Below are positions 6,437-28,848 of a stretch of DNA of 56,288 nucleotides, piece by piece. The notes beneath the pieces are model-generated. The model was not told the DNA's origin. It saw only the letters and a list, made by a program, of their open reading frames with translations, and did not search any database. Position numbers and translations under genes: made by a program. Positions within the stretch are counted from its first letter, which is position 1. Each line of letters begins with the position of its first letter. The stretch is from a virus (lineage: Duplodnaviria > Caudoviricetes), in IMG/VR virus record IMGVR_UViG_3300032893_000058, positions 1 through 56,288 of that record; one strand, 5' to 3'.

Positions 6437-6610
6437 GTGCGCTATTCTTTCCGCAATACCGGCGGCACGCTGGTGACCGTTGTGGCTGACGACGAGAATC
6501 GTGCCCGCTTCCTCGCGATGGTCAAGCTGCACGGGCCGGTCCCGCCGCCCGTGCTTGGTATCATTCGCTGGACCGGCACCGGCCTCGACCTGATCGCCGC
6601 TGATGCCTAA
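6437..6610 (+). CDS. Small hypothetical protein (57 aa)
   Basis: GTG after a strong RBS; below the ORF-track cut-off; overlaps the primase start. Confidence 0.5.
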   Translation: MRYSFRNTGGTLVTVVADDENRARFLAMVKLHGPVPPPVLGIIRWTGTGLDLIAADA

Positions 6611-8837
6611 GCCGCGCCCGGTCGTCGTCGGCGCTTCTTCGCTGCCCGTGCTGCAGACGCTGGCCTGGCTGCGCCGCTTTAACTTCCGTCCCGTCGCGCT
6701 GCACCCGCGCCGCAAGGCCGCCGTGTCTCGCGCCTACGTCGATCTCGATTACAAGCCGCCGGACGACGAACTGTGGCAGCACAACGATTATGGCGTCGGC
6801 GTCGTCACCGGGCCGGCGCATTCGGGGCCGGTCGACGTCGATCTCGACTGCGAGGAAGCCGTCTATTTTGCCTCCGTGTTCTTGCCGCCGACGCCGGCCG
6901 TGTTCGGCAGAGAGTCCAAACGTGCGTCGCATTATTTATATCGTGTTGAAACGCCGACATTTGAAAAAAAAGCATTCAACGATCCGCGCAACAACGAATC
7001 CACCATCGTCGAAATGCGGGGCGATGCCGGCCATCAAACAGTGATGCCGGGCTCGATCCACGAGCAGACCGGCGAACTGATCCGCTGGGACAGCGACGAG
7101 AACCCCGACGTGCCGATGGTCGACGCCGCCGAACTCATTCGCGCCGTGCGCAAAGTCGCCGTCGCGGTGCTGGTGGTGCGTCACATCTGGCAGCCGGGCT
7201 TTCATAATTCTCCGTGTTTGAGTTTGTCCGGGCTGTTCTACTATCTTGACTGGTCGCTGGATGAAGCCGAGCAATTCATCGCCGCGGTGTGCGACTACAC
7301 CGACGATCGCGACAAGTCGCGGCTGCCCACGGTGCGCGCCACTTACAAGCGCGGCGAAGCCGGCAAGAAGGTGTCGGGTGCCGGCGTGCTGCGCAAACAA
7401 TTGAACGACGACAAGCTGGTCGATCGGCTGCTCGAGTGGGCCGGCTCGCCGTCAGTAAATTTGATCAACGATTACAATTCGCGCTGGGCGGTGGTGCCGG
7501 TCGGCGGCAAATTTCGCATTGCCGACACCGACGTGCTGCCGGGCCAGCCGCCGCTGTTCTACGGCAAGGAGGACTGGCTCAACCTGGTCGGCACCGACTT
7601 CACCGACATCGAAGGCAAGCCGGTGTTGCGCGGTAAGTTGTGGCTCACCAATCCGCGGCGCCGCGCTTACCGCGGCATCGACTTCGTGCCCGGCGCCGAC
7701 GACGGCCAGACTTTAAACCTGTGGACCGGCTGGGCGGTAGAGCCCAAGGCCGGCGACTGCAGCGCCTGGATCGAACTTTCGCGCGACGTTATTTGCGGTG
7801 GCGACAAACATTTGTTTCGCTGGCTGGCGCACTGGTTCGCCAACATCGTGCGCGAACCGTGCAACAAGTCGCTCACCGCGCTGGTTGTAATCAGTTCGCT
7901 CGAGGGCGCCGGCAAGACGCTGATGTTCGAATATTTCGGACGGATTCTCGGGCCGTCCTACGTCACCGTCACCAAGGAAAACCACATCGTCGGGCAGTTC
8001 AACCGGCATCTAGGCGGCGCGCTACTGCTACACTCCGAGGAAGCACTGTACGGTGGTGACGTCAAGCATGCCGGCATCATTCGCTCACTGATCACCGACC
8101 CGTGGCACATGATCGAGCCCAAAGGCGTCGACAGCCAGAAAGTGCGCAATTATCTGCGGCTGGCCTTGACCAGCAATAACATTCACGCGGCGCCGGCCCG
8201 GCCCAGCGACCGCCGCTACACCGTGATCGACATGAAGGAACGCCGCGCCAGCGACGATCTCATTACGCGGGTGTTGAAGGAATTGGACGGCGACGGGCCG
8301 GCGGCATTGTTCCAGGCGCTGCTCGATCTCGACTATGACCCGGCGCTCCCACGCGTCAACGTCAAGAACGACGCGCTGCTGAGCCTGAAATCGATCAACC
8401 TGCAGCCGATGGAGGCATGGTGGCTCGAGACGTTGCAGGACGGCTTGCTGCTGCCGGATTGCCTGAACTGGGCACAGAAGCCGGAAAAGGACGAGTGGCC
8501 GGAAACGGCGGCCGTGCCGGCGCTGCACGTCGCCATGGCGCTCAACCTGCGTGCCCGCAACGTGCGGTCGGTGCCGTCGGCACAGGCGCTGGCATTCAAC
8601 TTGGAGAAGTTCATCGGCCGGCCGTTTCACCGCTCGAAGCTGAGTTTCGATAATCCGCTGCTTGATGACTATCCGCCGGCAGTCAAGCAACTTAACGGCC
8701 GCATGACCAGCATCGTCAACGTGCCGGACCTGAACTCTTGCCGCGAGGCGTTCGAGCGGTTCATCGGCCAGGATTTCGACTGGCCGGACGAAGGGGAGAG
8801 GAACGATGGACGACGTGAGCCACACCGCGACTTCTGA
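6603..8837 (+). CDS. Bifunctional primase-polymerase / SF3-type (DUF5906/NrS-1-like) helicase
   Basis: Prim-Pol motifs GVVTG...DVDLD, SHYLY, QTVMPGSIH; helicase Walker A EGAGKT, Walker B HSEEA, IEPKG, TSN, DRRY. Confidence 0.9.
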   Translation: MPKPRPVVVGASSLPVLQTLAWLRRFNFRPVALHPRRKAAVSRAYVDLDYKPPDDELWQHNDYGVGVVTGPAHSGPVDVDLDCEEAVYFASVFLPPTPAVFGRESKRASHYLYRVETPTFEKKAFNDPRNNESTIVEMRGDAGHQTVMPGSIHEQTGELIRWDSDENPDVPMVDAAELIRAVRKVAVAVLVVRHIWQPGFHNSPCLSLSGLFYYLDWSLDEAEQFIAAVCDYTDDRDKSRLPTVRATYKRGEAGKKVSGAGVLRKQLNDDKLVDRLLEWAGSPSVNLINDYNSRWAVVPVGGKFRIADTDVLPGQPPLFYGKEDWLNLVGTDFTDIEGKPVLRGKLWLTNPRRRAYRGIDFVPGADDGQTLNLWTGWAVEPKAGDCSAWIELSRDVICGGDKHLFRWLAHWFANIVREPCNKSLTALVVISSLEGAGKTLMFEYFGRILGPSYVTVTKENHIVGQFNRHLGGALLLHSEEALYGGDVKHAGIIRSLITDPWHMIEPKGVDSQKVRNYLRLALTSNNIHAAPARPSDRRYTVIDMKERRASDDLITRVLKELDGDGPAALFQALLDLDYDPALPRVNVKNDALLSLKSINLQPMEAWWLETLQDGLLLPDCLNWAQKPEKDEWPETAAVPALHVAMALNLRARNVRSVPSAQALAFNLEKFIGRPFHRSKLSFDNPLLDDYPPAVKQLNGRMTSIVNVPDLNSCREAFERFIGQDFDWPDEGERNDGRREPHRDF

Positions 8838-17135: not shown

Positions 17136-17285
17136 CGCAGCGCCAGTTCCGCGCCCTCAAGTGGCGCGAAGTCTACCGTGACGACCGCATCGTCGTCTTC
17201 TCAGGGGGTCTAGATGGCTTCAGCCTCGTCCACGTCAAGCAAGGCCAAAAAGTTACTAACATGTACCGTGTACGAGGACGTTGGT

Positions 17286-19214
17286 ATGACAGCCCGTCCG
17301 AAGCGGTCCTGGCCTACAACGGGCGCCCCCGACGAGACGCTGCAGACCGTGCTAAATCGGTTGAAGGACCCGACCCAGTCGACGCGCTGCCTTGACGTCG
17401 AAACGTCCGGGCTTGACTGGCGTAACAACGCCATCGTCGGCTACGTCGTCACGTTCAGCGGCGACCCGCGCGATTCCTATTACGTGCCGTTTCGCCACGC
17501 CGGTAATGCCAACGTCGGGGGTCGCGACGGTCTGAAATCGCCGACCGGCTGGGATGGCAAGCTGTTGCCGGGCGAAAAGGAACTGGTGACGGCGCTCGAC
17601 CAGCCGGGCACGCTGATGTTCGGACACAATCTGGCGTTTGATTTGCGGTTCAAGGCGCGCGTCGGCTTTAAGTTTCAACCGAAGTTCGAAGATACCATAA
17701 TCAACGAACCGCTGCTCGACGAGTATGCGACGTTCTCGCTGGTGGCCTGTGCCGCGCGCCACAACGTGCAGGCCAAGAAGGGCACCGAACTTTATGCTTA
17801 CATGGCTGACAAGCTGGGCGAGAAGAACGACAAGAACATTATGGGCCATTTCTGGCGTCTGTCCGGTGACGATCCGATGGCGGTCGAATATGCCTGCGGC
17901 GACGGCACGTCGACCTGGCAATTGCGCGACGCGCAGATGGTTGAAATTCAGGCGCAGGAATTAGGCCGCGTTCATGCTGTCGAAAGTCGCCTGATCCCGG
18001 TGCTGGCGCGCATGATGGTGCGCGGCGTCAAGGTCGACGAGGAACGCCTGGAATGGCTGATCGGGCACATCGACGATGAAGTCGAAAAACTGAAGAACGA
18101 ATTTCCGCCCGATTTCAACGCACTGTCGCCGACCGACGTGCAGGCGTGGATGGAGAAGCACGGCCATACCGACTGGCCACGCACGGCGCCGTCGCGGACC
18201 CGGCCGCAAGGCTCGCCGTCGTTCACGTCGCACTGGCTCGAGACGCACGAGGCCGGCCGCAAGATCATCAAACTACGCAAGTGGGAGAACCTCAATTCGA
18301 CCTTTTGCCATCCGCTGCGCGATCGGCACCTGTGGCACGGGCGGGTGCACTGCACCTTTAACCAGCTTCGCAACGACGAGTTCGGCACCGTGACCGGGCG
18401 ATTGTCGAGCAACGACCCCAACATGCAACAGGTGCCCAAGCACGACGAGGACTTGGGCCGGCTGTACCGGTCGGTGTTCGTGCCGGATTACGGATTGTGG
18501 GGCGAGCGCGACTACAGTCAGATCGAGCCGCGGCTGATGGCCTGGTATACGCGGGCGCGGGTGTTCCTCGACGACTATCGCAACAACCCGGACGCCGACA
18601 GCCACACCGCAGTGGCCAAGGATGCCAAGGGCGCGGCGTGGGACGACATGTCGCCGGCCGAGCAAAAGCACTTCCGCAACACTTGGGCCAAGCGCGTCAA
18701 TCAGACCGTGATCACGGGGGGCGGTAAGAACGCGCTGATCAAAAAATACAAGATGTCCGAGCAAGAAGCGATGCAGGCGCTGGTGCGCTATTTCAGGACC
18801 GTGCCTGAATTGAAGCCATTTCAGAAGAAGGCGGCGCGGTTGTTCCGCGAGCGCGGCTACGTGCGCGACGTGCTGGGGCGCCGGGCGCACTTGCGCGATC
18901 CGGACAAGGACTACACCGCGATGAACCGGCTGCTGCAGATGAGCAACGCCAGCATGCTCAAACTTAAGATGGCCGAAGTGCAGGAGTATCTGGACAGCGA
19001 GCCACAGGCGCAGGTCGAACTGCTTTTAAATTGTCACGACGCGCTGTCGTTCCAGTTTGCACTTGACAAGCGGTCGCGGGCCGCGTATGCTGAGTGCAAG
19101 CATATCATGGAGGACTTCTCAAGTGACGCGGCGATGGTCAAGATCGACCTGCCGATCAAGGTCGACGAGGGCGACGGCCCGAATTGGAGCGTCGCAACAT
19201 ACGGGGAAGATTGA
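17286..19214 (+). CDS. polA: Family A DNA polymerase with 3'-5' exonuclease, atypical motif B
   Basis: ExoI DVETSG, ExoII HNLAFD, ExoIII YACGD; TGRLSS.DPNMQQ; motif A DYSQIEPR; motif B AKRVNQTVITG; motif C HDA. Confidence 0.95.
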   Translation: MTARPKRSWPTTGAPDETLQTVLNRLKDPTQSTRCLDVETSGLDWRNNAIVGYVVTFSGDPRDSYYVPFRHAGNANVGGRDGLKSPTGWDGKLLPGEKELVTALDQPGTLMFGHNLAFDLRFKARVGFKFQPKFEDTIINEPLLDEYATFSLVACAARHNVQAKKGTELYAYMADKLGEKNDKNIMGHFWRLSGDDPMAVEYACGDGTSTWQLRDAQMVEIQAQELGRVHAVESRLIPVLARMMVRGVKVDEERLEWLIGHIDDEVEKLKNEFPPDFNALSPTDVQAWMEKHGHTDWPRTAPSRTRPQGSPSFTSHWLETHEAGRKIIKLRKWENLNSTFCHPLRDRHLWHGRVHCTFNQLRNDEFGTVTGRLSSNDPNMQQVPKHDEDLGRLYRSVFVPDYGLWGERDYSQIEPRLMAWYTRARVFLDDYRNNPDADSHTAVAKDAKGAAWDDMSPAEQKHFRNTWAKRVNQTVITGGGKNALIKKYKMSEQEAMQALVRYFRTVPELKPFQKKAARLFRERGYVRDVLGRRAHLRDPDKDYTAMNRLLQMSNASMLKLKMAEVQEYLDSEPQAQVELLLNCHDALSFQFALDKRSRAAYAECKHIMEDFSSDAAMVKIDLPIKVDEGDGPNWSVATYGED

Positions 19215-19376
19215 TGTGGTATCTTGGCGGAAAGATGCGACAGTCGAAGCAAATCGTCGCGGCGATCGACAATTTTAGTTTGTACGTTGAGCCATTCTGC
19301 GGGGCGTTATGGTCGGCTACCGCCGTAATGAAGACTTTTCCGGGGCGCCGATACCTATTAAACCATGCTTATCCGG

Positions 19377-19405
19377 TTGACACATGCAGACACTTGTGCT
19401 AGTAT
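19377..19405 (+). promoter_or_regulatory. IS inward promoter overlapping the left IR
   Basis: TTGACA-N17-TAGTAT with extended TG. Confidence 0.65.
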
Positions 19406-19450
19406 CATGGGCGTTGGTGGCGATCACGCCACCCTCCTTGGAGGGTAAAA

Positions 19451-19774
19451 ATGGCAAACGCTCTGGTACATCCGACTAAAGTTATTGATGCGATTAATTG
19501 CGCCACGGCTGCTGAAGTTATGGCCGCAATTGAGCAGATGGGCATGAGTCTCGATTTGGCTTGCACGGTTAAAGTCAGCCTCATCGAAGAAACGCTTTCT
19601 GATGGCTCTAAAGCCCAAAGCATCGTCCTTCGTTCGGAGGATGACGCCGATTTCGCGAGAAATGTCGCGGGGTTGAATGAAGATATTTTCTTCCGGGCTG
19701 ACCTGCGCCTTCTGCGGTCTACCCTTCGCGAGTATCGACGAGAGGCAATAGCCTTGGTCGAGAAGGGGGTCTGA
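19451..19774 (+). CDS. IS passenger gene 1, hypothetical
   Basis: GGAGGG RBS; lies inside the IRs. Confidence 0.65.
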   Translation: MANALVHPTKVIDAINCATAAEVMAAIEQMGMSLDLACTVKVSLIEETLSDGSKAQSIVLRSEDDADFARNVAGLNEDIFFRADLRLLRSTLREYRREAIALVEKGV

Positions 19775-19777
19775 ACC

Positions 19778-20008
19778 ATGACCAAGGCTACCGAAGGTGC
19801 GCACGAAGAAATCGACCTGTTGGGCCGTGAAATCGAGGGCCTCAATGATCAGTGCAATGAATTGGAGGCTGCCCTTCGAGAGTCGTTGAAATTGCAAAGC
19901 CACTACGCTGCGCTGCTGAATGACTATGACGGCGGCAAAAGAATGGGATTTAGCTCCGTCGAGGCGTGGCTCAATCGGCTTCGCTCTCTTAAAAGTGGGG
20001 AGGCATAG
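19778..20008 (+). CDS. IS passenger gene 2, coiled-coil hypothetical
   Basis: Lies inside the IRs; abuts the transposase start. Confidence 0.65.
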   Translation: MTKATEGAHEEIDLLGREIEGLNDQCNELEAALRESLKLQSHYAALLNDYDGGKRMGFSSVEAWLNRLRSLKSGEA

Positions 20009-21052
20009 ATGCCTCCCCATGCCGATGTTCTCCAATGGGAACATCTGCCGTTCCCCAAGTCGCTCCGGGATTTCCAGCGGCTTTTCCCGACTGATACTGC
20101 CTGCGCCCGCTGGCTTGAGGGTGCTAAGTGGCCGAAGGGCTTTGAGTGCCCGCATTGCCACGAAAAGGGCGACCCGCAACGGCTGGAATCCCGTCCGGGC
20201 GTCTTGGCTTGCCGATCCTGCCGTAAGCAAACGTCGCTGACGGTCGGCACGGTGATGGAGCGGACACATACGCCGCTCGCAACATGGTTTTGGGCGGCCT
20301 ACCTCGTTTCCAGCCTGACACCCGGCATTTCGGCCGTTCAACTGCAACGGCAGGTCGGACTTACAAGGTACGAGACGGCCTTCCAAATCCTGCACAAGCT
20401 CCGCGCTGGCATGGTGCGGCCAAACCGCGACCAGATCGGCGGCAATCTGGCGCGCGGCGATCATGTCGAGGTCGATGAATGTTATATCGGCGGCGAGACG
20501 CGCGGTAAGGGCAAAGGCGTGCACGCCGACGAAAAGACCCTGGTTGTTGCTGCGGTCGAAGTCCGCACGCGACCGGCCAAGAAGGGCGATAAGCCTATGC
20601 GGCGCGGCGGCCGATATGCTGGCCGTCTGCGGCTGGAAATCGCGCCGACACGTGGCGAGAAATCCCTCTGCGGCTTTGTGGAGGCTGCCGTCGCGCCGGG
20701 CGCAATCGTCATCACGGATGCGGCCCCGGCTTATAGGAACCTCGAAAAGCTCGGCTATGCCCATCTGCCGGTGATTGAAGGCGGCAATCCGGAAGTCGCC
20801 GAAGAATATCTGCCCATCGTCCACTTGGTTTTCAGCAACCTGAAAGCTTGGCTGCAGGGCACCCATCACGGTCGCGTCGAGCCCAAGCACCTGCAGACTT
20901 ATCTCAACGAGTTCACCTTCCGCTTTAACCGGCGGTTCTACCCATTCAACGCTTTCCGCTCGTTGCTCGGCATCGGGGCAAACGGCGAAGCTCCGACCTA
21001 TGATGGGCTCTATAGCGGGAAGTGGAAGCATCGGACGCTCGATCATGACTGA
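20009..21052 (+). CDS. tnp: IS1595-family transposase
   Basis: Zn ribbon CPHC/CRSC, HTH, VEVDECY, ITD, LPIVH (His as third catalytic residue), YLNEFTFRFNRR. Confidence 0.95.
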   Translation: MPPHADVLQWEHLPFPKSLRDFQRLFPTDTACARWLEGAKWPKGFECPHCHEKGDPQRLESRPGVLACRSCRKQTSLTVGTVMERTHTPLATWFWAAYLVSSLTPGISAVQLQRQVGLTRYETAFQILHKLRAGMVRPNRDQIGGNLARGDHVEVDECYIGGETRGKGKGVHADEKTLVVAAVEVRTRPAKKGDKPMRRGGRYAGRLRLEIAPTRGEKSLCGFVEAAVAPGAIVITDAAPAYRNLEKLGYAHLPVIEGGNPEVAEEYLPIVHLVFSNLKAWLQGTHHGRVEPKHLQTYLNEFTFRFNRRFYPFNAFRSLLGIGANGEAPTYDGLYSGKWKHRTLDHD

Positions 21053-21645
21053 TCAACCAATAGAGGCTGCATGTTCAAACCGGATAAGCATGTATTAAAC
21101 GATATAAACCCGTACTTGATAAACATGTGGCACGCCGCTTATGACGGATGGAACCCCCCGGAAAAGGTGACGGAACGCGATTATATTTATTACAATAAAA
21201 CACGCCCGATAAATGATCCAATGACAGGTTATGTTGGGTTTGCGTGGTCATTTGGGGGTAAATTCTTTGGTGGCGCGGCACGCACCAATGGCAGGATAAA
21301 AGGATCATATAAATCAACGCGCGATAAGATCGATGTCATACGCGCGAATAATGTGCGGTTCACATGCGGGCATTTTTCCTTGGTTAAACCGCAATCGCAG
21401 TCAGTTGTTTATCTGGACCCACCTTATGAGGCCCGCACCCATCAATCACATTTGAGCAAAAGGTTCAATTACGACGAATATTTTATCTACGCCGAGAATC
21501 TTGCAAAACGTCACGTGGTGATTGCTACGTCGTTTACCAACGAACGCAAATGGAAGGTGTTGCACAATTATGGCGATACTGTCGTGCGCCATCACGCCGG
21601 AAAAGCCCCCGATGGTACAATAGAGCTGCTGTTACGGGTAGGAAA

Positions 21646-22149
21646 ATGAAGGAAACCGCCATTCAAGCCATCGTCTGCGACGTGGTCAACGAGGCCGGCG
21701 GCTTCGCCATGAAGATGGACAACGCGTTCGTCGGCGGCGTGGCGGACCTGCTGATAAAATTGCCGAATTACAGGCAATTTAAAGGTTGGCGCGGTCGTGG
21801 TGACGCAGCTAGTTTTCTTGAAGTTAAGCAACGGGTCCGTCCGCGCACCGGCAATGCGACGTTCTCGCTCGACGTGACGCACCTGCAGGACAAGTTCTTG
21901 CGCCGAGCCGACGCCGCCGGCATCCCGTGCGGTGTGGCATCGTTCATGCAAGAAGGCACCGGGTCGGGGCTGAAATTGTGGCTGCACGTGATGACCTGGC
22001 GCGTCGCTAGCTACGAGGACGGTGTCGGTGCCAAAGCGTACACGACCTGTCCGGACGCACACATCCTGCTGGGGCGCAAGGGCGAGCGCGAAGGCCCGCT
22101 GCTCAGCGCACTATATGACTGGCACCAAAAATGGAGGGAAGAGCGATGA
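21646..22149 (+). CDS. PD-(D/E)xK nuclease (VRR-NUC / resolvase-like)
   Basis: MKETAIQ...GVADL...FLEVK...LQ..FL pattern. Confidence 0.7.
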   Translation: MKETAIQAIVCDVVNEAGGFAMKMDNAFVGGVADLLIKLPNYRQFKGWRGRGDAASFLEVKQRVRPRTGNATFSLDVTHLQDKFLRRADAAGIPCGVASFMQEGTGSGLKLWLHVMTWRVASYEDGVGAKAYTTCPDAHILLGRKGEREGPLLSALYDWHQKWREER

Positions 22150-22655
22150 CCTTGGGAACCGTCGACTATCGCTGCGACGAGTGCAACGCTGACTATAAGA
22201 ATTGCGGCGGTGGCGACCTGATACAATGTCCCAAGAACCGCGGCCCTAATAAAGGGTGCGGGTTGCGCATGGTGCGTCACACGGACGAAATCGTAGCCGG
22301 TAATGCCGAAACTGCGGCGCTGTTGTCGCAGCCAGAAATTACCGCCAAAGCGTCGTGGTTATTGGCCGAAGGCGGCCAGTCTTTGGCCTCCATCCTGTCC
22401 GACCGCGGCAAGACCCACGGCGATTTCGGCGACAACGCTGAAATTGCGCTGCAGATTCGCGACGTGATGCGCAGTGCCAAGCCGCACTGGTCGAACCTGT
22501 CAGCCGAGCAGCGACTGGCGCTTGAAGAGATCGCGCTCAAGATCGCCCGCATCTGTAGCGGCGGCAACTGGGAGGCGGAACACTGGCGCGACATCCAAGG
22601 CTACGCTAAGCTGGGCGAAAACGTGTGCAACAGCAGGAACGCGGCGCAAGAATGA
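22146..22655 (+). CDS. DUF6378-like protein with N-terminal Zn ribbon
   Basis: RGKTHGDF...KIARI..G....HWRDIQGYA; CxxC N-terminus. Confidence 0.7.
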   Translation: MTLGTVDYRCDECNADYKNCGGGDLIQCPKNRGPNKGCGLRMVRHTDEIVAGNAETAALLSQPEITAKASWLLAEGGQSLASILSDRGKTHGDFGDNAEIALQIRDVMRSAKPHWSNLSAEQRLALEEIALKIARICSGGNWEAEHWRDIQGYAKLGENVCNSRNAAQE

Positions 22656-22809: not shown

Positions 22810-23901
22810 ATGTGGCTCGATCAATTCTGTCAGCGCGGCAAGGCCGACGTGATCGTCGGCGGGCAATGGGGCTCGGAAGGCAAGGGCGCCGCGGCGGCCT
22901 ATCTGGCGCGGCGGTTAGCCGAAGGTTTTCGCTCCTACGATGTTTACAGCACCAATGCCGGCGCCCAGGCCGGACACACATCGGTTCACAGGGGACGCAA
23001 GCGCGTCGTGTTTCATTTGCCGACCGCGGCACTGATCGCGCGGGATCACGATTTTCCTGGACTGATCCACTTGAACGGCGGGTCGATCATCGACCCCGAC
23101 GTGTTGGAACAGGAACTTAAGGACAACGACCTGACCACCACCGACGTTCAAATTCACGCCAATGCCGCGGTGATCACGCAGGACTGCAAGGACGCCGAGG
23201 GCTTGGCTCATTCAGTGCAGACCAAGATTGCTTCGACCCGCAAGGGCGTCGGCGAGGCGCTGGCGCGCAAGGTGCTGCGATCCGGCGTGATCGCCAAGGA
23301 CCACCCGTTCCTGCGCCAGTTCGTGCGCCCGATACCGTGGCGCATGTTGAGCATTGACCGGGTCCTGGTTGAAGTGCCGCAAGGCATCGGGCTGTCGGTC
23401 GACGGGCAATTTTACCCGCACTGCACGTCGCGCAATTGCACGCTGCAGCAGGGGCTGGCCGATGCCGGCATTCACCCGCGCCAGTTCGGCGCCTCGATGT
23501 TGGTGCTGCGTACCACGCCGATCAGAGTCGGCAACATTGTCGAATCGTTGAGTATTGACACGCCATTTGGCGCGGTACGCAGTAAACCCACTGTGCTTGG
23601 CACGTCCGGCGGCTACTATGCTGACCAGCGGGAATTGTCGTGGAACGAATTAGGCGTGCCGCCGGAAATTACCACCGTGACCAAGCGCGTGCGCCGCGTG
23701 TTCTCGTTCTCGGGTCGGCAGGCGCGTGAAGCCATAATGCTGACGCGCCCTGACGTGGTACATCTGACGTTCTGCGATTACCCGGTTAACGTGGCTGAAA
23801 TCACGATCAGCATTATCAACACGGCGGAGCATTTCAGGCTTGAGCCTAAGGTGTTGTTCCAATACGGGCCGACGACTGACGACGTTCAGGAGGAAATGTG
23901 A
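22810..23901 (+). CDS. purZ: PurZ-type (PurZ0-like) adenylosuccinate-synthetase homolog
   Basis: GGQWGSEGKG (Ser where PurA has the catalytic Asp), AGHT, YPHCTSR, PIRVG, TTVTKRVRRV, LTFCD; short 363-aa form; ATG 22810 after AGGAG. Confidence 0.85.
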   Translation: MWLDQFCQRGKADVIVGGQWGSEGKGAAAAYLARRLAEGFRSYDVYSTNAGAQAGHTSVHRGRKRVVFHLPTAALIARDHDFPGLIHLNGGSIIDPDVLEQELKDNDLTTTDVQIHANAAVITQDCKDAEGLAHSVQTKIASTRKGVGEALARKVLRSGVIAKDHPFLRQFVRPIPWRMLSIDRVLVEVPQGIGLSVDGQFYPHCTSRNCTLQQGLADAGIHPRQFGASMLVLRTTPIRVGNIVESLSIDTPFGAVRSKPTVLGTSGGYYADQRELSWNELGVPPEITTVTKRVRRVFSFSGRQAREAIMLTRPDVVHLTFCDYPVNVAEITISIINTAEHFRLEPKVLFQYGPTTDDVQEEM

Positions 23902-24212
23902 GCCGCACCACGCTGTCCGACCGCCGGTTGTCAATAACGGCCAAACTGACACACATCAAGGCTGACGGCGGCGAATTGCACGTCATCGCTACCTTCGGAC
24001 TTGACAGAGGACAGGTGCGTGAAGTTTTTTGCAGTTCATTCAAGGACGGTGCCGACGTGCGGGGCCTGGTCATCGACGCCTGCGTCTGCATGTCGTTGTT
24101 GCTGCAACACGGGTATTCGGTGCGGGACCTGAAGGGCAAGTTGATCCCGGCGCCGCAGTCGGTGCTGGCGACGCTGGTCGACGCGGCGATAGAGATAGAG
24201 GGTGAAAAATGA
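23898..24212 (+). CDS. TSCPD-like domain protein (class II RNR C-terminal-like)
   Basis: G.VREVF....K.G.D...L..D.....SLLLQHG pattern. Confidence 0.65.
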   Translation: MSRTTLSDRRLSITAKLTHIKADGGELHVIATFGLDRGQVREVFCSSFKDGADVRGLVIDACVCMSLLLQHGYSVRDLKGKLIPAPQSVLATLVDAAIEIEGEK

Positions 24213-24598
24213 GCGAACCATCAGCCAGACAACAATTTGAAAATAAATACGGCGTGCCGACTGAAGTGTATTGCATGAAATGTGACAATTGTTGCTTACG
24301 TATTGACGGTTCAGTAATTTCACCTGAACGCATCCGGCCGACAGTGGCTGCTTTTGCTGTTGCTATGGAGGCCAAACTTCGCAAAAATGACCACAAGACC
24401 GCGTGGCGCGACTTGCCGGTCGAGGCGCTGTTTCGGCAGTTGCTGATTGAACTTGAGGAATTCAAGGTCGCTGACGAGTTTCTCAACGTGTCCGAGGCCC
24501 GTAAGGAACTGGTCGATCTGGCCAATTTTTGCCTCATCCTGCACGACCGTCTCGGCATGCTCGACCAGGATAAGAACCGCCATGCCCAACCAAAGTGA
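24209..24598 (+). CDS. MazG-like all-alpha NTP pyrophosphohydrolase (candidate MazZ analog)
   Basis: IELEEF...KELVDLANF (ExxE...ExxD metal motif). Confidence 0.6.
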   Translation: MSEPSARQQFENKYGVPTEVYCMKCDNCCLRIDGSVISPERIRPTVAAFAVAMEAKLRKNDHKTAWRDLPVEALFRQLLIELEEFKVADEFLNVSEARKELVDLANFCLILHDRLGMLDQDKNRHAQPK

Positions 24599-25223
24599 AC
24601 TGATCCAGATGTTTCCGCCCGAACTGCGCACGGCGTCGGTCGTGCCGCGTTGGTCGGTGTTGTGGACGCTGACGCGCGATACCATCGCCAACCACAGTTT
24701 TTATGTGGCGATATATGCGCGGTCCATCGCCCGGCTGATCAAGTGGCGCAGCTCAAATTACGCTATGTTGATATATTTGGCGTTGACCCACGATCTGGAC
24801 GAGACGATCACGGGCGATATCGTGTCGCCGATCAAGTCGGAAATCGTGGACCGCGACCGCTATGACGCGCTGGTGGCGCGCAAGATGCGCGAGCGGCTGC
24901 CTGACATCGAGGCCGAACTGTCGGTATGGGCTAATACGACTGGCCGGGGCGCCTCCTTCGGCCACGTCGGGGCGGAGCAACAATATGACGAAGCCTGGAA
25001 AATCATCGCCGTGGCCGATCGCCTTGACGCGCTGCTGTTTCTGATCGGCGAGCAGCGCATGGGCAACGGCGTCATTGCGCCGCGCATTCCGGACGCGCAA
25101 AACCGTCTGCACGCGGCGTTCATGGAACTGCCGAAGGTCAAGCAGGAACTGGAAGCATTGTGGCAGTGCGTAATGCTGCCGGTGATCCGGGAACACGGCG
25201 ACACGGGAGGGAACGGCGTTTAA
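24582..25223 (+). CDS. HD-domain nucleotide phosphohydrolase (YfbR/DatZ-like)
   Basis: VPRW...ANHSF...THDLDETITGDIVSPIK...VADRLDA; true start ATG 24582. Confidence 0.85.
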   Translation: MPNQSELIQMFPPELRTASVVPRWSVLWTLTRDTIANHSFYVAIYARSIARLIKWRSSNYAMLIYLALTHDLDETITGDIVSPIKSEIVDRDRYDALVARKMRERLPDIEAELSVWANTTGRGASFGHVGAEQQYDEAWKIIAVADRLDALLFLIGEQRMGNGVIAPRIPDAQNRLHAAFMELPKVKQELEALWQCVMLPVIREHGDTGGNGV

Positions 25224-26647
25224 TGCGCTGGCACCTGAACCACGCCGTACACGGCACGAAGCCTTGGGCCGTGCAGCATGCCTATCTCGACGCTGCGGCC
25301 GGACGCCAGCGCTACGGCAATTTTTCGCAGCAGGGGCTGGGCAAGACCGCCGACACGCTCAACGAATTCATTGACTTCGAGGACGTGGACCTGTGCGTCG
25401 TGCTGGCGCCGTCCAGCTTCATGGCCGACTGGCCGCTGGCGCCGGCCGAGTGGGGCGCCGGTTTCTTGCGCACCGGCATGTGGGGGCGCGACGACTTGCC
25501 CTTCGACTGGGACTGCGGCCTGTACTCCATCGCGCACGAGACGCTGCGCGGGTCGAAGCGCGCTCGCGACGAACTGCTGGAATTATTTGAAAAGCGACGC
25601 TGCATGCTGGTGTTCGACGAGGGCACCGGTATCAAGGATGCAAATTCAGTGTTGGCGCGGTACGTTGTCGGCGCCCTGTCCAAGGAAGCCGTATACACGC
25701 GGGTGCTCAACGGCACGCCAATAGTGCAGGACGCGCTCGACTACTTTGCACAACTGCGCCTGCTGGGCGAATGCAACGGCATGAATCCTTACGCCTTCCG
25801 CAACCGGTTTTGCCAGATGGGGGGCTTCAAGGGTAAACAGGTCAAAGGCATTCGCAACGAAGACGAATTGGGCCGCATCCTCGACCGCTGCTCGTTCCGA
25901 GCGCTGAAACGCGACTGGCGCAAGGACCTGCCGCCGCAGATCGACCAGCCCATTCATCTTGAAATGACCGACAGCCAGCGCAAGCACTATCATACGATGA
26001 TGGAAGAGTTTTATGCGCTGGTCGGCGACGACGAAGAAGTCAGCGCTGAACTGGTGTTGACCCAGCGCCTTAAACTGCAACAAATCTCATCCTGCATGCT
26101 GATGGACAAGGGTAAGGTGCACTGGCTGGAATTGCCGAAGAACAATCCGAAACTGCGCGCCGCGTTCGACCTGATGGAGACGGGCAACGGCAAGATGATC
26201 GTCGTCTATTACTTCGACCCGTCCGGCCGCATGCTGATCGAACAATTTCAAGAAGCCGGATATGCCCCGGCCTGGATCACGGGCGGCATGACGGCCGAGG
26301 ACATCGTGGTACAGAAGGCAAAGTTCAACAACGATTCGTCGTGCCGGGTGCTCATCGGACAGATTGACCAGACCAGCCGCGGTCACACGCTCGTCGGCAA
26401 GCCGGGCAACGACCGCTGCTCGCGCACCTATTATTACGAGACGGACCTGAGCCTGATGCACCGGCTGCAGATGAACGACCGCAATCATCGTGGCGAGCAG
26501 GACGAGACGTGCTACATTTACGATCCCATCGCGTCGCCAATCGACCAGTTAAACGTCGACATCTTGACGCGTAAGAAGACCCAGGCCGACGGAATGGACG
26601 AACTGGTGCGATTGATAAGGGAGCAAAAGCATGGCCGAGCAGCTTAA
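25223..26647 (+). CDS. SNF2-family helicase
   Basis: QGLGKT, VFDEG, LNGTP, Q..DRNHR; TAATG coupling. Confidence 0.9.
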   Translation: MRWHLNHAVHGTKPWAVQHAYLDAAAGRQRYGNFSQQGLGKTADTLNEFIDFEDVDLCVVLAPSSFMADWPLAPAEWGAGFLRTGMWGRDDLPFDWDCGLYSIAHETLRGSKRARDELLELFEKRRCMLVFDEGTGIKDANSVLARYVVGALSKEAVYTRVLNGTPIVQDALDYFAQLRLLGECNGMNPYAFRNRFCQMGGFKGKQVKGIRNEDELGRILDRCSFRALKRDWRKDLPPQIDQPIHLEMTDSQRKHYHTMMEEFYALVGDDEEVSAELVLTQRLKLQQISSCMLMDKGKVHWLELPKNNPKLRAAFDLMETGNGKMIVVYYFDPSGRMLIEQFQEAGYAPAWITGGMTAEDIVVQKAKFNNDSSCRVLIGQIDQTSRGHTLVGKPGNDRCSRTYYYETDLSLMHRLQMNDRNHRGEQDETCYIYDPIASPIDQLNVDILTRKKTQADGMDELVRLIREQKHGRAA

Positions 26648-26982: not shown

Positions 26983-27260
26983 TGTCGCGTCGTCCGCGCC
27001 GCTACGACTGGTTGAAGACCAAGGCGCCCGACCCGCCGATTGACGAGTATCACCTCAATGACGGTTACTACAACCCGCGCCCGGCGCCGGGCATGCCGAA
27101 GGGCTGCTCCGACTTTGTGTTTTGGCGCTGGTTCGACAGCCTGCCGCCCGAAGTCCGGGAAGTATTGAATCTAGTGCCACGGACCGGGACGGAATTTCAG
27201 TGGCTGATGAACCAGGCCGCGCAGAGATATCCCTTGACAGATGATATGACGCGTGGTTAA
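26982..27260 (+). CDS. Hypothetical protein
   Basis: TGATG coupling. Confidence 0.55.
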   Translation: MSRRPRRYDWLKTKAPDPPIDEYHLNDGYYNPRPAPGMPKGCSDFVFWRWFDSLPPEVREVLNLVPRTGTEFQWLMNQAAQRYPLTDDMTRG

Positions 27261-27262
27261 AT
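27233..27262 (+). promoter_or_regulatory. Putative early promoter
   Basis: CTTGACA-N17-TTAAAT with extended TG; CAGATAGGAG leader. Confidence 0.55.
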
Positions 27263-27288
27263 GTGGGCCTCAGATAGGAGCAGCCGAT

Positions 27289-28848
27289 ATGACCACCGGA
27301 AAACGCACCCCTTCCCCCCAGCAGCAGGCCGTCATCGACTTCGTCGCCAGCGGCGCCGGCTCTGCCTTCGTCGAGGCCGTGGCCGGCGCCGGCAAGACTA
27401 CTACGCTGGTCGACGCGCTTGGCGTCACCAAAGGTTCGGTGGCCTTCGTCGCTTACAACAAGAAGATCGCCGACGAGATCAAGGCGCGCATCGCGCCGCT
27501 CAATCTCGGCAACCGCGTGCAGGCCGGTACGTTCCATTCGTTCGGGCTGCGCACTTGGCGCCGCGCTTATCCGCAGGTGAAATGCGGGCCGGACGCCGCC
27601 AATGAGAAGGCCGAACGCACCGTCAAGGCGCTGGCCATCGGCAAGCCGCTCGAATCGTTCGTGCTCAACCTGATGTCGCTCGCCAAGCAACGCGCCATCG
27701 GGCTGTTCGGCGCCATCGACGACCAGAAGCTATACTGGGACATCATCGAGCATTTCGACATGCTGTACGACCTTGAAGACGAGAGCCTCGCGCAGCAAGG
27801 CGTCGATCTGGCGATCAAGGGGCTGCGGCTACACGCCAAGCACGCGCCTGAAATTATCGACTTCGACGACATGATCTGGATGCCGGTCATCAGCGGCATT
27901 CGCATGTGGCAGAACGACATGGTGTTCGTCGACGAGGCCCAGGACACCAACCCGGCGCGGCGTGCATTCGTGCGCAAGATGTTGAACCAGCGCACCGGCC
28001 GCGCGGTGTTCGTCGGCGACCGCCACCAGGCGATCTACGGTTTTACCGGCGCCGACAACGATGCCGTCGACCAGATCATCCGGGACTTCAAGTGCACGTC
28101 GCTGCCGCTGACTGTCACCTACCGCTGCCCGAAGGCCGTCGTCACCAAGGCGCAGGAACTGGTGTCACACATTCAGGCGCACGAGACGGCGCCGGACGGC
28201 GAAGTGCACCGGCTGTATTGGGACGAATTTGTGCAGCGTGCGACGGCGCCCGTCGGCATGACGCCCGTAGGAACTGAAGGTTGGTATGGCCTGCACCACA
28301 GCGACGCCATTCTGTGCCGCAAGACCAAGCCGCTGATCGACACCGCGTTCATGCTGATCAAAGCCGGCGTACCGTGTCACGTCGAGGGCCGCGACATCGG
28401 CACCGGGCTGATCAAGCTGATCAACAAGTTCAGCAACGCAGCGTCGCTCGACGCGATGTTGACGCGGCTCGACGCCTATGGCGAGCAGCAATGCGAGAAG
28501 CTGAAATCCAAGGGCCGCAACGGGCAGGCCGAGTCATTAATGGACCGCATCGCCTGCATCCACGTCATTGCCGACAAATTCCAGACCATCGATCAGGTCA
28601 AGACGCAGATCATGTCGCTGTTCGAGGACGACGACAATCGCAAGAAGCCGACCGTGACGTTGTCGACGGTGCACAAGTCGAAGGGCCGCGAGTGGCCGCG
28701 TGTGTTCATTCTCGGCGCCAACGCCTGGATGCCAGGGCCGTGGGCGCGGCAACAATGGGAGCAGGACCAGGAATTTAACTTGATGTACGTTGCTTACACG
28801 CGGACGCAGCGGGAACTGCACTTCATTGACGTGCCGGCCGACGCATAG
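27289..28848 (+). CDS. UvrD/Rep-like SF1 helicase
   Basis: AVAGAGKTT, VDEAQD, VGDRHQAIYGF, TYRCP, TVHKSKGREW, YVAYTR. Confidence 0.95.
   Translation: MTTGKRTPSPQQQAVIDFVASGAGSAFVEAVAGAGKTTTLVDALGVTKGSVAFVAYNKKIADEIKARIAPLNLGNRVQAGTFHSFGLRTWRRAYPQVKCGPDAANEKAERTVKALAIGKPLESFVLNLMSLAKQRAIGLFGAIDDQKLYWDIIEHFDMLYDLEDESLAQQGVDLAIKGLRLHAKHAPEIIDFDDMIWMPVISGIRMWQNDMVFVDEAQDTNPARRAFVRKMLNQRTGRAVFVGDRHQAIYGFTGADNDAVDQIIRDFKCTSLPLTVTYRCPKAVVTKAQELVSHIQAHETAPDGEVHRLYWDEFVQRATAPVGMTPVGTEGWYGLHHSDAILCRKTKPLIDTAFMLIKAGVPCHVEGRDIGTGLIKLINKFSNAASLDAMLTRLDAYGEQQCEKLKSKGRNGQAESLMDRIACIHVIADKFQTIDQVKTQIMSLFEDDDNRKKPTVTLSTVHKSKGREWPRVFILGANAWMPGPWARQQWEQDQEFNLMYVAYTRTQRELHFIDVPADA

What the first reader, a model, noticed from the sequence alone, without database searches (positions are those of the whole stretch)
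22810..25223. Probable 2-aminoadenine (Z) genome pathway of the PurZ0 type in a P22-like alphaproteobacterial podophage
Seen: a PurA homolog with GSEGKG (Asp->Ser, the PurZ hallmark that accommodates dGMP). It retains Arg in TTVTKRVRR and T-F-x-D at the NTP-specificity site, suggesting GTP use (PurZ0/archaeal-like) rather than the ATP-type N-F-x-N. It is followed by a MazG-like pyrophosphatase and an HD hydrolase. Known: PurZ, dATPase (DatZ) and dGTPase (MazZ), with host PurB and kinases, make dZTP and remove dATP. Inference: the genome is partly or fully Z-substituted.
Basis: partly seen in the sequence, partly recalled or inferred. Interest (0 to 1): 0.85.

Follow-up and report, generated by a model that had tools for sequence, protein, structure and literature searches.

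The report
Z-base DNA gene cluster, PurZ lineage
An uncultivated 56-kb phage carries the known gene set for replacing adenine with 2-aminoadenine in its DNA; its key enzyme belongs to the ordinary PurZ branch, not PurZ0, but has a GTP-like cofactor pocket.

Summary
Window 22810-23901 encodes a 363-aa PurA homologue with GSEGKG, TTVTKRVRR and LTFCDY. After one extra 104-aa ORF come a MazG-like protein (24209-24598) and an HD hydrolase (24582-25223). The window is a complete virus record with 127-bp terminal repeats and a P22-type coat.

The Z-genome inference is well supported by sequence. The dGMP pocket is PurZ-like. The MazG-like protein is of the MazZ-2 type. The HD protein has the DatZ W/I(V) signature. 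The order PolA–PurZ–MazZ–HD–SNF2 recurs in related IMG/VR loci.

The "PurZ0 type" label is not supported:
- In an ML tree the enzyme is nested in the PurZ clade (100/97).
- Grouping it with PurZ0 is rejected (AU p 9e-15).
- The genome has no dUTPase or NDT gene.

The donor-site residues (T320, D323) are indeed PurA/PurZ0-like. However, Asp and Asn alternate among close relatives, and the tree favours a secondary change. GTP use is plausible but untested.

Asp→Ser is not phage-specific: 373 stretches in cellular genomes carry it. An alphaproteobacterial host is only weakly indicated. No chemical evidence for Z could be obtained.

Verdict: a new member of a known kind.

The parts
22810..23901 (+). 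PurZ-lineage succino-2-amino-deoxyadenylate synthase homologue (363 aa). Motifs GSEGKG, TTVT loop, LTFCDY.
23898..24212 (+). 104-aa ORF between purZ and mazZ, function unknown. Only faint TSCPD / class II RNR C-terminal similarity. Not conserved: found in 1 of 80 related loci.
24209..24598 (+). MazZ-2-type MazG-like NTP pyrophosphohydrolase (129 aa) with a Cys-rich N-terminal extension. Invariant E81, E84, E100, D103.
24582..25223 (+). HD / YfbR-like phosphohydrolase, DatZ-like (213 aa). Has H..HD..D, W24 and V26.
17214..19214 (+). Family A DNA polymerase with 3'-5' exonuclease motifs, in the same position as DpoZ in other Z phages. Helix-O Tyr replaced by Thr.
22131..22655 (+). DUF6378-like protein just upstream of purZ. 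A conserved neighbour (26 of 80 related loci); function unknown.
25160..26647 (+). SNF2-family helicase directly downstream of the HD gene, conserved in synteny. Start codon not settled.
27253..28848 (+). UvrD-like helicase of the same replication module.
6603..8837 (+). Primase-polymerase (Prim-Pol plus DUF5906) of the replication module.

Best explanation
This is the 2-aminoadenine (Z) nucleotide module of a complete, uncultivated 56-kb phage with a P22-type capsid. By descent it is the PurZ / MazZ-2 / DatZ type known from vibriophage phiVC8 and Ochrobactrum phage OH. It is not the PurZ0 / DutZ / DmtZ type.

Proposed steps (all inferred from homology; none assayed):
1. The MazZ-2-like pyrophosphohydrolase turns dGTP into dGMP.
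2. The PurZ homologue condenses dGMP with aspartate, using an NTP, to give N6-succino-2-amino-dAMP.
3. Host PurB and host kinases make dZMP and then dZTP.
4. The HD enzyme hydrolyses dATP, so that A is kept out.
5. The neighbouring PolA replicates the genome with dZTP.

One feature is unusual for the PurZ lineage. The two side chains that read the donor base are Thr320 and Asp323, as in PurA and PurZ0, instead of Asn and Asn/Gln. The enzyme therefore probably accepts GTP, alone or beside ATP (my estimate about 0.5). In that case dATP removal rests on the HD enzyme alone. The tree favours this pocket being a secondary change within PurZ rather than an ancestral retention.
For: Family and lineage:
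- The best matches in every library are PurZ.
- Careful IQ-TREE (79 rows x 378 columns, LG+C20 PMSF): the PurZ clade of 50 rows, supported 100/97, holds the window and all five named PurZ references. The window's 16-row GSEGKG subclade (95/90) lies inside a 42-row clade (96/96).
- AU tests reject the window clade joined with PurZ0 (p 9e-15) and the window clade as basal to all GSTGKG PurZ (p 0.003).

dGMP pocket (using the residue list from passages of PMC8342488):
- Kept: G21, S22, A54, G55, H56, T57, S142, T143, R157, Q191, C205, T206, R239, V240, the TTVT loop 288-291 and R295.

MazZ-2-type protein:
- BLASTP 6e-9 to OH p33.
- Profile against phiVC8 p26: probability 94.8%, E 4.9e-8.
- Four invariant acidic residues, as PMC8342488 describes for MazZ-2.
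- AF2 model pLDDT 84.7. The top Foldseek rows are MazG/HisE proteins.

HD protein:
- PHROG 7076 'dATP triphosphohydrolase', 5.9e-16.
- The HD dyad is present in 61 of 61 aligned homologues. W-I occurs in 40 and W-V in 17 (the window is W-V) at the DatZ W20/I22 columns. The key residues are taken from bioRxiv 2025.10.22.683976 section 10.

Synteny in the 80 IMG/VR loci that were kept:
- HD downstream in 60, MazZ-2-like in 31, DUF6378-like in 26 (tallies), PolA upstream in 61 (my count of the rows).

Donor pocket:
[quoted passage not shown] The window has T320 and D323, like E. coli T331/D334 and the PurZ0 references (S or T, then D).
Against: - No biochemical or chemical datum exists for this phage. 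Only three runs hold it; all are contig-only and all may be its own source.
- The PurZ and DpoZ NCBIfam scores are below the curated cut-offs: 197.8 of 300 and 273.1 of 500.
- The HD protein matches YfbR (2.2e-6) better than DatZ 6ZPA (0.009) in the PDB sequence search.
- Foldseek found no match at E <= 0.001 for the MazG-like model; the best was 0.026.
- Pocket differences from the S-2L/phiVC8 enzymes: N49->Q53, Y203->H204, G130->A141.
- Asp->Ser also occurs in many cellular homologues of unknown function, so it is not proof of dGMP use on its own.
- Asp and Asn alternate at the donor site: 26 D against 10 N among 36 sampled near relatives, and 19 D against 60 N/Q, with 1 gap, in the 80 viral loci. 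The position may therefore be less decisive than assumed.
- The tree has a single, long outgroup (E. coli PurA, branch 2.64) and no Asp-type archaeal PurA.
- The second AU group was named after the tree had been seen.
Confidence: 0.78

Rival explanations
1. Same Z pathway, but the enzyme is a strict ATP/dATP user like phiVC8 and S-2L PurZ. On this view Thr320/Asp323 are tolerated variants, because an Asp carboxylate can also accept the adenine 6-amino hydrogen bond.
For: - The enzyme is nested in the PurZ clade.
- The adenine-stacking F321 and P354, and Y324, are kept. bioRxiv 2025.10.22.683976 section 8 lists F295 and Y298 as adenine-stabilising.
- Asp and Asn alternate among close relatives with the same gene context.
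Against: - PMC8342488 assigns exclusion of G to the amide at this very position, and that amide is lost here.
- The other adenine-reading Asn is also lost (T320).
- PurA and the PurZ0 references carry the same T/S...D pair.
- F and Y at these positions also occur in cellular GSEGKG homologues that have Asp, so they are not ATP-specific.
Confidence: 0.4
2. PurZ0-type pathway: a GTP-dependent, archaeal-like enzyme of the PurZ0 branch.
For: - The P-loop has Glu (GSEGKG; PurZ0 has GSEAKG).
- The donor motif is T..D, as in Wayne (T..D) and Ghobes (S..D).
Against: - The AU test rejects a clade of the window group with Ghobes, Wayne and L060 (delta lnL 92.8, p 9e-15).
- Identity is 31-32% to PurZ0 against 35-41% to PurZ references.
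- PDB E-values: PurZ0 7VF6 6e-22 against phiVC8 PurZ 9e-41.
- PMC12884076 reports a dutZ gene in all 98 PurZ0 genomes. Here no dUTPase or NDT gene is found in six frames of the complete genome.
- DatZ-like and MazZ-2-like genes are present instead.
Confidence: 0.03
3. Not a Z pathway. The PurA-like enzyme would be an auxiliary purine gene (IMP to adenylosuccinate, or another 6-substitution), and the HD and MazG-like proteins would be general nucleotide-pool or housekeeping enzymes.
For: - Ser-type PurA-like genes are common in cellular genomes without any phage Z module: 73 of 80 loci examined.
- The curated PurZ cut-off is not reached.
- The HD protein is about as close to YfbR as to DatZ.
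Against: - The enzyme sits inside the clade that holds all experimentally characterised PurZ.
- The TTVT loop and V240 of the deoxy-specific pocket are kept.
- The three genes co-occur in the canonical order next to a PolA in dozens of related loci.
- The DatZ W/I(V) signature is present.
Confidence: 0.06

Closest known systems
Z-cluster of Ochrobactrum phage vB_OspP_OH (MT028492) and vibriophage phiVC8 (PurZ, MazZ-2, DatZ, next to PolA/DpoZ)
   Same: - Same gene order: PolA ... PurZ, small MazG-like, HD, helicase.
- OH is the best hit among cultured phages for PurZ (39.6%, 1e-52) and for PolA (32.8%, 8e-79).
- The MazG-like protein matches OH p33 (6e-9) and phiVC8 p26 (profile probability 94.8%).
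- All belong to the same PurZ clade.
   Different: - Here the P-loop is GSEGKG, not GSTGKG, and the donor site is T-F-C-D, not N-F-x-N.
- An extra 104-aa ORF and a DUF6378-like gene flank purZ.
- The genome is 56 kb with a P22-type coat, against about 40 kb.
- The PolA helix-O residue is Thr (OH has Ser, phiVC8 has Phe).
Cyanophage S-2L Z-cluster (PurZ 7ODX, MazZ-1 7ODY, DatZ 6ZPA)
   Same: - purZ-mazZ-datZ order.
- Conserved dGMP pocket.
- HD protein with W and a hydrophobic residue at the DatZ W20/I22 columns.
   Different: - S-2L has MazZ-1, whereas the window has the MazZ-2 type.
- S-2L replicates with PrimPol only (PMC8342488 passage). The window has both a PolA and a Prim-Pol protein.
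- Donor residues are N305/Q308 in S-2L against T320/D323 here.
PurZ0 systems of actinophages (Gordonia phages Archimedes and Ghobes, Arthrobacter phage Wayne)
   Same: - Ser at the Asp13 position, Glu in the P-loop, (S/T)..D at the donor site, and the TTVT loop.
   Different: - They form a separate clade.
- They use DutZ/DmtZ/DUF5664 instead of DatZ/MazZ (PMC12884076; gene tables).
- None of those genes is found in the window.

Membership tests
PurZ (phage succino-2-amino-deoxyadenylate synthase, PurZ clade of PMC12884076) | Ser in place of the catalytic-site Asp13 of PurA | tested here: met
   Ser22 in GSEGKG aligns with phiVC8 S14, S-2L S23 and the E. coli Asp. This is not specific: 373 cellular stretches share it.
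PurZ (phage succino-2-amino-deoxyadenylate synthase, PurZ clade of PMC12884076) | Phylogenetic placement with characterised PurZ, apart from PurZ0 and PurA | tested here: met
   Clade of 50 rows supported 100/97, including phiVC8, S-2L, Acinetobacter, BCSR129 and OH. AU tests.
PurZ (phage succino-2-amino-deoxyadenylate synthase, PurZ clade of PMC12884076) | dGMP pocket: TTVT loop, V next to R (2'-OH exclusion), and S/T/Q/R contacts | tested here: met
   Kept: S142, T143, R157, Q191, C205, T206, R239, V240, T288-T291 and R295. Three substitutions: Q53, H204, A141.
PurZ (phage succino-2-amino-deoxyadenylate synthase, PurZ clade of PMC12884076) | Adenine-reading donor site N-F-x-N/Q (ATP/dATP donor) | tested here: not met
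   The window has T320-F-C-D323. I therefore file it as a PurZ-lineage enzyme by descent, not as a canonical ATP-type PurZ.
PurZ (phage succino-2-amino-deoxyadenylate synthase, PurZ clade of PMC12884076) | Curated NCBIfam NF038379 cut-off (300 bits) | tested here: not met
   197.8 bits. It is the best-scoring model, ahead of archaeal-type PurA NF003295 at 136.4 bits.
PurZ (phage succino-2-amino-deoxyadenylate synthase, PurZ clade of PMC12884076) | Catalysis: dGMP + Asp + NTP gives dSMP | not testable with these tools
   Needs an enzyme assay.
PurZ0 | Monophyly with Ghobes/Wayne/Archimedes-type enzymes | tested here: not met
   AU p 9.19e-15, delta lnL 92.8. Archimedes itself was not in the tree. 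PDB 7VF6 scores 6e-22 against 9e-41 for phiVC8 PurZ.
PurZ0 | PurA-like donor residues (S/T)..D | tested here: met
   T320/D323 against Ghobes S299/D302 and Wayne T323/D326.
PurZ0 | dutZ (dUTPase-like) in the genome, often with dmtZ (NDT-like) | tested here: not met
   No PF00692 or PF05014 match in six frames of the complete record. The dUTPase model rang in 12 of 14 control genomes.
DatZ (dATP triphosphohydrolase) | HD-domain metal site H..HD..D | tested here: met
   Invariant H, HD and D columns. HD dyad in 61 of 61 aligned homologues.
DatZ (dATP triphosphohydrolase) | Specificity residues W20 and I22 of S-2L DatZ | tested here: inconclusive
   W24 is present; position 22 is Val26, a conservative change. 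Across 61 homologues W-I occurs in 40 and W-V in 17. Whether Val keeps dATP specificity is not known.
DatZ (dATP triphosphohydrolase) | Sequence family and position next to purZ/mazZ | tested here: met
   PHROG 7076, 5.9e-16. BLASTP to S-2L DatZ 8e-7. An HD gene lies downstream of purZ in 60 of 80 related loci. The PDB sequence search ranks YfbR above DatZ.
MazZ-2 (phiVC8-like MazG-type (d)GTP pyrophosphohydrolase) | Four strictly conserved acidic metal ligands | tested here: met
   E81, E84, E100 and D103 are invariant in 20 sequences. The criterion comes from a passage of PMC8342488.
MazZ-2 (phiVC8-like MazG-type (d)GTP pyrophosphohydrolase) | Homology to named MazZ-2 proteins and a position between purZ and datZ | tested here: met
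   OH p33, 6e-9. phiVC8 p26, probability 94.8%. Gene order. The authors' MazZ-2 HMM (Figshare) was not available.
MazZ-2 (phiVC8-like MazG-type (d)GTP pyrophosphohydrolase) | MazG/HisE all-alpha fold | tested here: inconclusive
   The top Foldseek rows are 2P06, HisE 1Y6X and several MazG proteins, with probability up to 1.00. The best E is 0.026 and none is <= 0.001.
DpoZ (Z-selective family A polymerase) | Tyr to Phe in helix O, the one change shared by both DpoZ clades (PMC8599892 passage) | tested here: not met
   The window and its relatives have Thr, and OH has Ser, at the phiVC8 F459 column (MAFFT alignment). I do not file it as DpoZ, only as the PolA that occupies the position of DpoZ.
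DpoZ (Z-selective family A polymerase) | Curated NCBIfam NF038380 cut-off (500 bits) | tested here: not met
   273.1 bits. It is still the best model, ahead of Pol I at 220.7 bits.

The most novel reading that the evidence does not exclude
Within the PurZ lineage, a large uncultivated clade of ~56-kb phages has secondarily regained a PurA/PurZ0-like, GTP-accepting donor pocket (Thr/Asp, with Glu back in the P-loop). Close relatives switch between Asp and Asn. If so, the phosphate donor of Z synthesis is evolutionarily labile and is uncoupled from the PurZ0/PurZ split. This would run against a simple one-way PurA -> PurZ0 -> PurZ progression, and it would offer natural Asp/Asn pairs for testing what sets donor choice.
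Probability: 0.4. Interest if true: 0.6.

Novelty: new member of a known kind. Interest (0 to 1): 0.45.

Why it matters
Z-genome phages matter for phage–host conflict, because Z-DNA resists many restriction enzymes, and for synthetic biology.

What this window adds:
- **A new carrier lineage.** It shows a complete P22-capsid phage from an uncultivated lineage carrying the phiVC8/OH-type Z-cluster.
- **Diversity.** PurZ diversity in metagenomes is far larger than among cultured phages: 247 clusters at 50% identity score E <= 1e-30.
- **A variable donor site.** The residues said to separate ATP-type PurZ from GTP-type PurZ0 vary inside the PurZ clade itself. That gives a direct, cheap experiment (donor preference of natural Asp/Asn variants) on how the pathway evolved.
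- **A caution for annotation.** The Asp->Ser "hallmark" alone should not be used to call Z genomes. Hundreds of cellular PurA-like genes carry it in non-phage contexts.

Tried and rejected
- **PurZ0 membership.** Tested by tree, AU test and accessory genes, and rejected.
- **Ancestral retention of the donor pocket** (window clade basal to all GSTGKG PurZ). Rejected at p 0.003. The group was named after the tree had been seen.
- **Single-protein scan of IMG/VR.** It found nothing, so the scan was repeated with an alignment.
- **Evidence of DNA modification from public reads.** Only three wetland-metagenome runs hold the sequence. All are kept as contigs and all may be its own source. Read laying was therefore not run, and neither habitat nor modification is claimed from them.
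- **DUF6378-like neighbour.** No PDB sequence match. No BLAST similarity to the Acinetobacter DUF5664-DUF550 protein or to phiVC8 p23. No Foldseek match, and only generic helical-bundle matches with VIA (best Z 7.4). The hhalign comparison with the MazZ-2 profile is marginal (probability 54%). Its function is left open.
- **IS transposase as a host clue.** Best identity is 66% in a sample of 401 genomes of the class of a Bradyrhizobium genome. It is 59% in 401 genomes of the class of a Pseudomonadales genome. This is too distant to name a host.
- **PADLOC.** It knows neither the window's PurZ nor the cellular PurA-like loci.
- **Tools and papers not available.** Supplements (residue tables, MazZ-2 HMM) could not be seen.
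- **Predicted PurZ structure.** I did not fold the PurZ protein itself, so pocket statements rest on alignment to residues named in the papers.
Full report
**What the window is.** The window is a whole IMG/VR virus record of 56,288 bases, classed as having direct terminal repeats. Bases 1-127 are identical to 56162-56288. No tRNA gene is present, and GC content is about 0.59.

The minus-strand half carries a morphogenesis module:
- large terminase and portal (phrog_156);
- scaffold and major head protein (phrog_283);
- head-closure and DNA-ejection proteins;
- a tail-fibre-like protein.

The coat protein's best phage hits are Pseudomonas phage PAE2 (52%) and Acetobacter phage phiAX1 (38.5%). 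After these come records annotated 'P22 coat protein' and several named podoviruses. 'P22-like' is therefore reasonable for the capsid.

The plus-strand half is a replication module. In order it holds Prim-Pol, Pam3 gp33/gp34-like proteins, endonuclease VII, PolA, the Z genes, an SNF2 helicase and a UvrD-like helicase.

**The observation.** The ORF at 22810-23901 starts at an ATG 8 nt after TAGGAG. Its 363-aa product is a PurA homologue, and its best matches everywhere are PurZ:
- PHROG 1211, 5.9e-56;
- NCBIfam NF038379, 197.8 bits, best model but under the 300-bit cut-off;
- PDB phiVC8 PurZ 9.1e-41, S-2L PurZ 1.3e-28, P. horikoshii PurA 1.8e-23, PurZ0 7VF6 6e-22 (the identities of these entries come from passages of PMC12884076).

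Two details need correcting. First, a 104-aa ORF (23898-24212) separates purZ from the MazG-like gene (24209-24598), and the HD gene runs from 24582 to 25223. Second, the nonapeptide TTVTKRVRR is identical in the N-F-x-N-type PurZ of phages OH and BCSR129. Its Arg therefore says nothing about the donor.

**The accessory genes.**

*MazG-like protein.* It has no Pfam or NCBIfam family. The evidence that it is a MazZ-2-type enzyme is:
- a match to the MazG-like archaeal protein 2P06 (9.2e-5);
- a match to OH p33, annotated as an NTP pyrophosphohydrolase (BLASTP 6e-9);
- as a 20-sequence profile, a match to phiVC8 p26 (probability 94.8%).

PMC8342488 (passages) names the phiVC8-like variant MazZ-2, says OH has it, and says four acidic residues are strictly conserved. 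Alignment A6 has exactly four invariant acidic residues: E81, E84, E100 and D103. The AF2 model (pLDDT 84.7) finds 2P06, HisE and MazG proteins at the top of Foldseek, but none at E <= 0.001.

*HD protein.* It matches YfbR-like Pfam (9.5e-18) and PHROG 7076 'dATP triphosphohydrolase' (5.9e-16). It also matches S-2L DatZ by BLASTP at 8e-7. At the DatZ W20/I22 columns it has W24 and V26; the key residues are taken from bioRxiv 2025.10.22.683976 section 10. Among 61 aligned homologues, W-I occurs 40 times and W-V 17 times.

*Genes not found.* Six-frame searches of the complete genome find no dUTPase, NDT, DUF5664 or DUF550. The DUF550 and DUF5664 models did find their targets in the Acinetobacter and Wayne phage records.

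**Relatives and synteny.** Among cultured phages, 203 records carry a homologue, all under 60% identity. The best is Ochrobactrum phage OH at 39.6%. In metagenomes the family is very large:
- 959 proteins at E <= 1e-10 among the candidates scored, the top 120 at 50-63% identity, many on contigs of 51-67 kb;
- in the library of 50%-identity representatives, 247 clusters at E <= 1e-30.

An alignment-based scan of IMG/VR gave 245 relatives out of 251 stretches, of which the best 80 loci were kept. Searching these with the window's proteins shows a recurrent order: Pam3 gp34-like, PolA, (orf168), (DUF6378-like), PurZ, (MazZ-2-like), HD, SNF2, (UvrD). The tallies are HD in 60 loci, MazZ-2-like in 31, DUF6378-like in 26 and PolA in 61 (my count of the rows). 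The 104-aa ORF recurs only in L093.

**PurZ or PurZ0?** A FastTree of 259 rows and a careful IQ-TREE of 79 rows agree. Both were rooted on E. coli PurA. The careful tree used LG+C20 PMSF with ultrafast bootstrap and SH-aLRT supports.
- A PurZ clade of 50 rows (100/97) contains the window and phiVC8, S-2L, Acinetobacter, BCSR129 and OH.
- Its sister is a group of five Ser-type sequences, four from archaeal MAGs and one from a MAG binned as Planctomycetota (100/97).
- The PurZ0 references Ghobes and Wayne lie outside it, among cellular Ser-type groups.
- The window sits in a 16-row subclade whose members share the GSE P-loop (95/90). This subclade is inside a 42-row clade (96/96) that excludes the phiVC8/S-2L/Acinetobacter group.

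The AU test rejects a clade of the window's subclade with PurZ0 (delta lnL 92.8, p 9e-15). It also rejects placing the subclade outside all 34 GSTGKG-type PurZ (delta lnL 58.4, p 0.003); that group was named after seeing the tree.

PMC12884076 (passages) assigns DatZ and MazZ-2/DUF550 to PurZ phages, and DutZ/DmtZ/DUF5664-1 to PurZ0 phages. By descent and by gene content, this is therefore a PurZ-type system.

**The donor pocket.** PMC8342488 reports three points about S-2L PurZ:
- adenine stacks on F306 and P336;
- oxygen atoms of N305 and Q308 (N297 in phiVC8) bind the adenine 6-amino group;

The window keeps F321 and P354 but has T320 and D323.

That PurZ0 uses GTP is my recollection of the defining paper, which is not held. 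[quoted passage not shown] One sentence of PMC12884076 gives the preferences the other way round, which conflicts with that paper's own introduction.

Two findings temper the inference:
1. The position is labile. Among 36 sampled near relatives, 26 have Asp and 10 have Asn. Among the 80 viral loci, 19 have Asp, 60 have Asn or Gln and 1 has a gap, including a GSTGKG subgroup with G-F-C-D. The changes show no visible link to the presence of MazZ or HD genes.
2. The tree makes the Thr/Asp state derived within PurZ.

I put GTP acceptance at about 0.5.

**Asp->Ser is not phage-specific.** A scan of one genome per prokaryotic species, using the P-loop pattern, found 373 relatives among 398 matched stretches. 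Of the 80 loci kept:
- 67 have GSE(G/A)KG, nearly all with Asp at the donor site;
- 73 show no other gene of the phage module within 6 kb.

Their neighbours include:
- a ~670-aa protein with RNase_H_2, DUF429 and kinase-like AAA domains (Bradyrhizobium, Nostoc);
- a dCTP-deaminase-like protein (Nostoc);
- N-terminal kinase-like fusions, with DUF7002 downstream in Terriglobus (Terriglobus, Pigmentiphaga).

GSTGKG/N-F-x-N-type genes lie on 0.6-1.0-Mb contigs of Micavibrio, UBA6503 and Bdellovibrionales MAGs. The Micavibrio gene is next to a tandem MazG and the UBA6503 gene next to a Ham1 gene. PADLOC knows none of these.

**Polymerase.** The PolA scores best against NCBIfam 'phage_DpoZ_1', at 273.1 bits against a cut-off of 500; Pol I scores 220.7 bits. 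By tblastn, only OH stands out (8e-79). Acinetobacter and Vibrio DpoZ (9e-38, 8e-30) rank among phages not known to me as Z phages.

PMC8599892 gives Tyr->Phe in helix O as the one change shared by both DpoZ clades. At that column the window and its relatives have Thr, and OH has Ser. I therefore do not call this enzyme DpoZ.

**Host.** OH (an Ochrobactrum phage) is the nearest cultured relative for PurZ and PolA. The coat is nearest to that of a Pseudomonas phage. The IS transposase has 66% identity at best in the alphaproteobacterial sample and 59% in the gammaproteobacterial sample. These are hints only.

**Limits.**
- There is no chemical evidence for Z. The only runs that hold the sequence are contig-only and may be its own source.
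- The tree has one long outgroup, no Asp-type archaeal PurA and no Archimedes PurZ0.
- PurZ itself was not folded.
- Supplements and the authors' MazZ-2 HMM were not available.

Noticed in passing
window 19214-21649: An IS1595/ISXO2-family element interrupts a Dam-like D12 N6-adenine methyltransferase gene. The transposase is at 20009-21052, and 44-nt imperfect inverted repeats lie at 19351-19394 and 21062-21105. The methyltransferase N-terminus (MWYLGGK...EPFCG) lies at about 19214-19350, and the DPPY-containing part at 21071-21649. The transposase query hit none of the 80 related viral loci.
   Followed up: partly
window 22131-22655: A DUF6378-like protein with a conserved R..THGD...K(I/L)AR...D.W.DI.GYA core lies just upstream of purZ. 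It occurs in 26 of 80 related loci, and in the VP2-like locus L171 it lies downstream of the HD gene instead. No structural or functional match was found. It may be an unrecognised accessory of Z-clusters.
   Followed up: partly
window 17214-19214 (motif B / helix O): The otherwise conserved helix-O tyrosine of family A polymerases (Phe in phiVC8 and Wayne DpoZ) is Thr here and in 8 related PurZ-linked PolA sequences. It is Ser in phage OH.
   Followed up: partly
loci L028-L091 (for example L063 Terriglobus roseus, L086 Bradyrhizobium, L081 Nostoc linckia, L056 Pigmentiphaga): There are large families of cellular PurA-like genes with Ser in place of the catalytic Asp (GSEGKG) and a GTP-type Asp. 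They sit in apparent operons with a RNase_H_2+DUF429+kinase-like protein or a dCTP-deaminase-like protein, or are fused to a kinase-like domain next to DUF7002. They are not in PADLOC, and their function is unknown.
   Followed up: partly
loci L012, L014, L017 (MAGs labelled Micavibrio, Proteobacteria UBA6503, Bdellovibrionales): PurZ-type genes (GSTGKG, N-F-x-N) lie on 0.6-1.0-Mb contigs without the phage PolA/HD/SNF2 module. L012 is next to a tandem MazG and L014 next to a Ham1-family pyrophosphatase. This could be a prophage remnant, a binning artefact or a cellular Z-related pathway.
   Followed up: partly
loci L106-L108, L113, L115, L117, L119, L120: A second PurZ subgroup combines the canonical GSTGKG P-loop with G-F-C-D at the donor site. 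Asp at this position therefore arose, or persisted, in more than one PurZ lineage.
   Followed up: no
window 23898-24212: A 104-aa ORF wedged between purZ and mazZ has only faint similarity to the TSCPD domain / C-terminal region of class II ribonucleotide reductases (E 0.21; 6e-4 to 1e-3). It is present in only one related locus, L093.
   Followed up: partly
window 54727-55032: Two tandem copies of a 153-nt unit (79% identical) lie inside the 910-aa minus-strand ORF 53555-56287, which has no PHROG match.
   Followed up: no
window 9213-9914: A second DNA methyltransferase gene (phrog_799, 2.5e-52; no Pfam hit) is intact, unlike the IS-disrupted Dam-like gene.
   Followed up: no
PMC12884076, section 24: [quoted passage not shown] This is the reverse of the same paper's introduction (PurZ uses ATP) and of the bioRxiv summary. 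It is probably a slip, and worth knowing when citing.
   Followed up: yes
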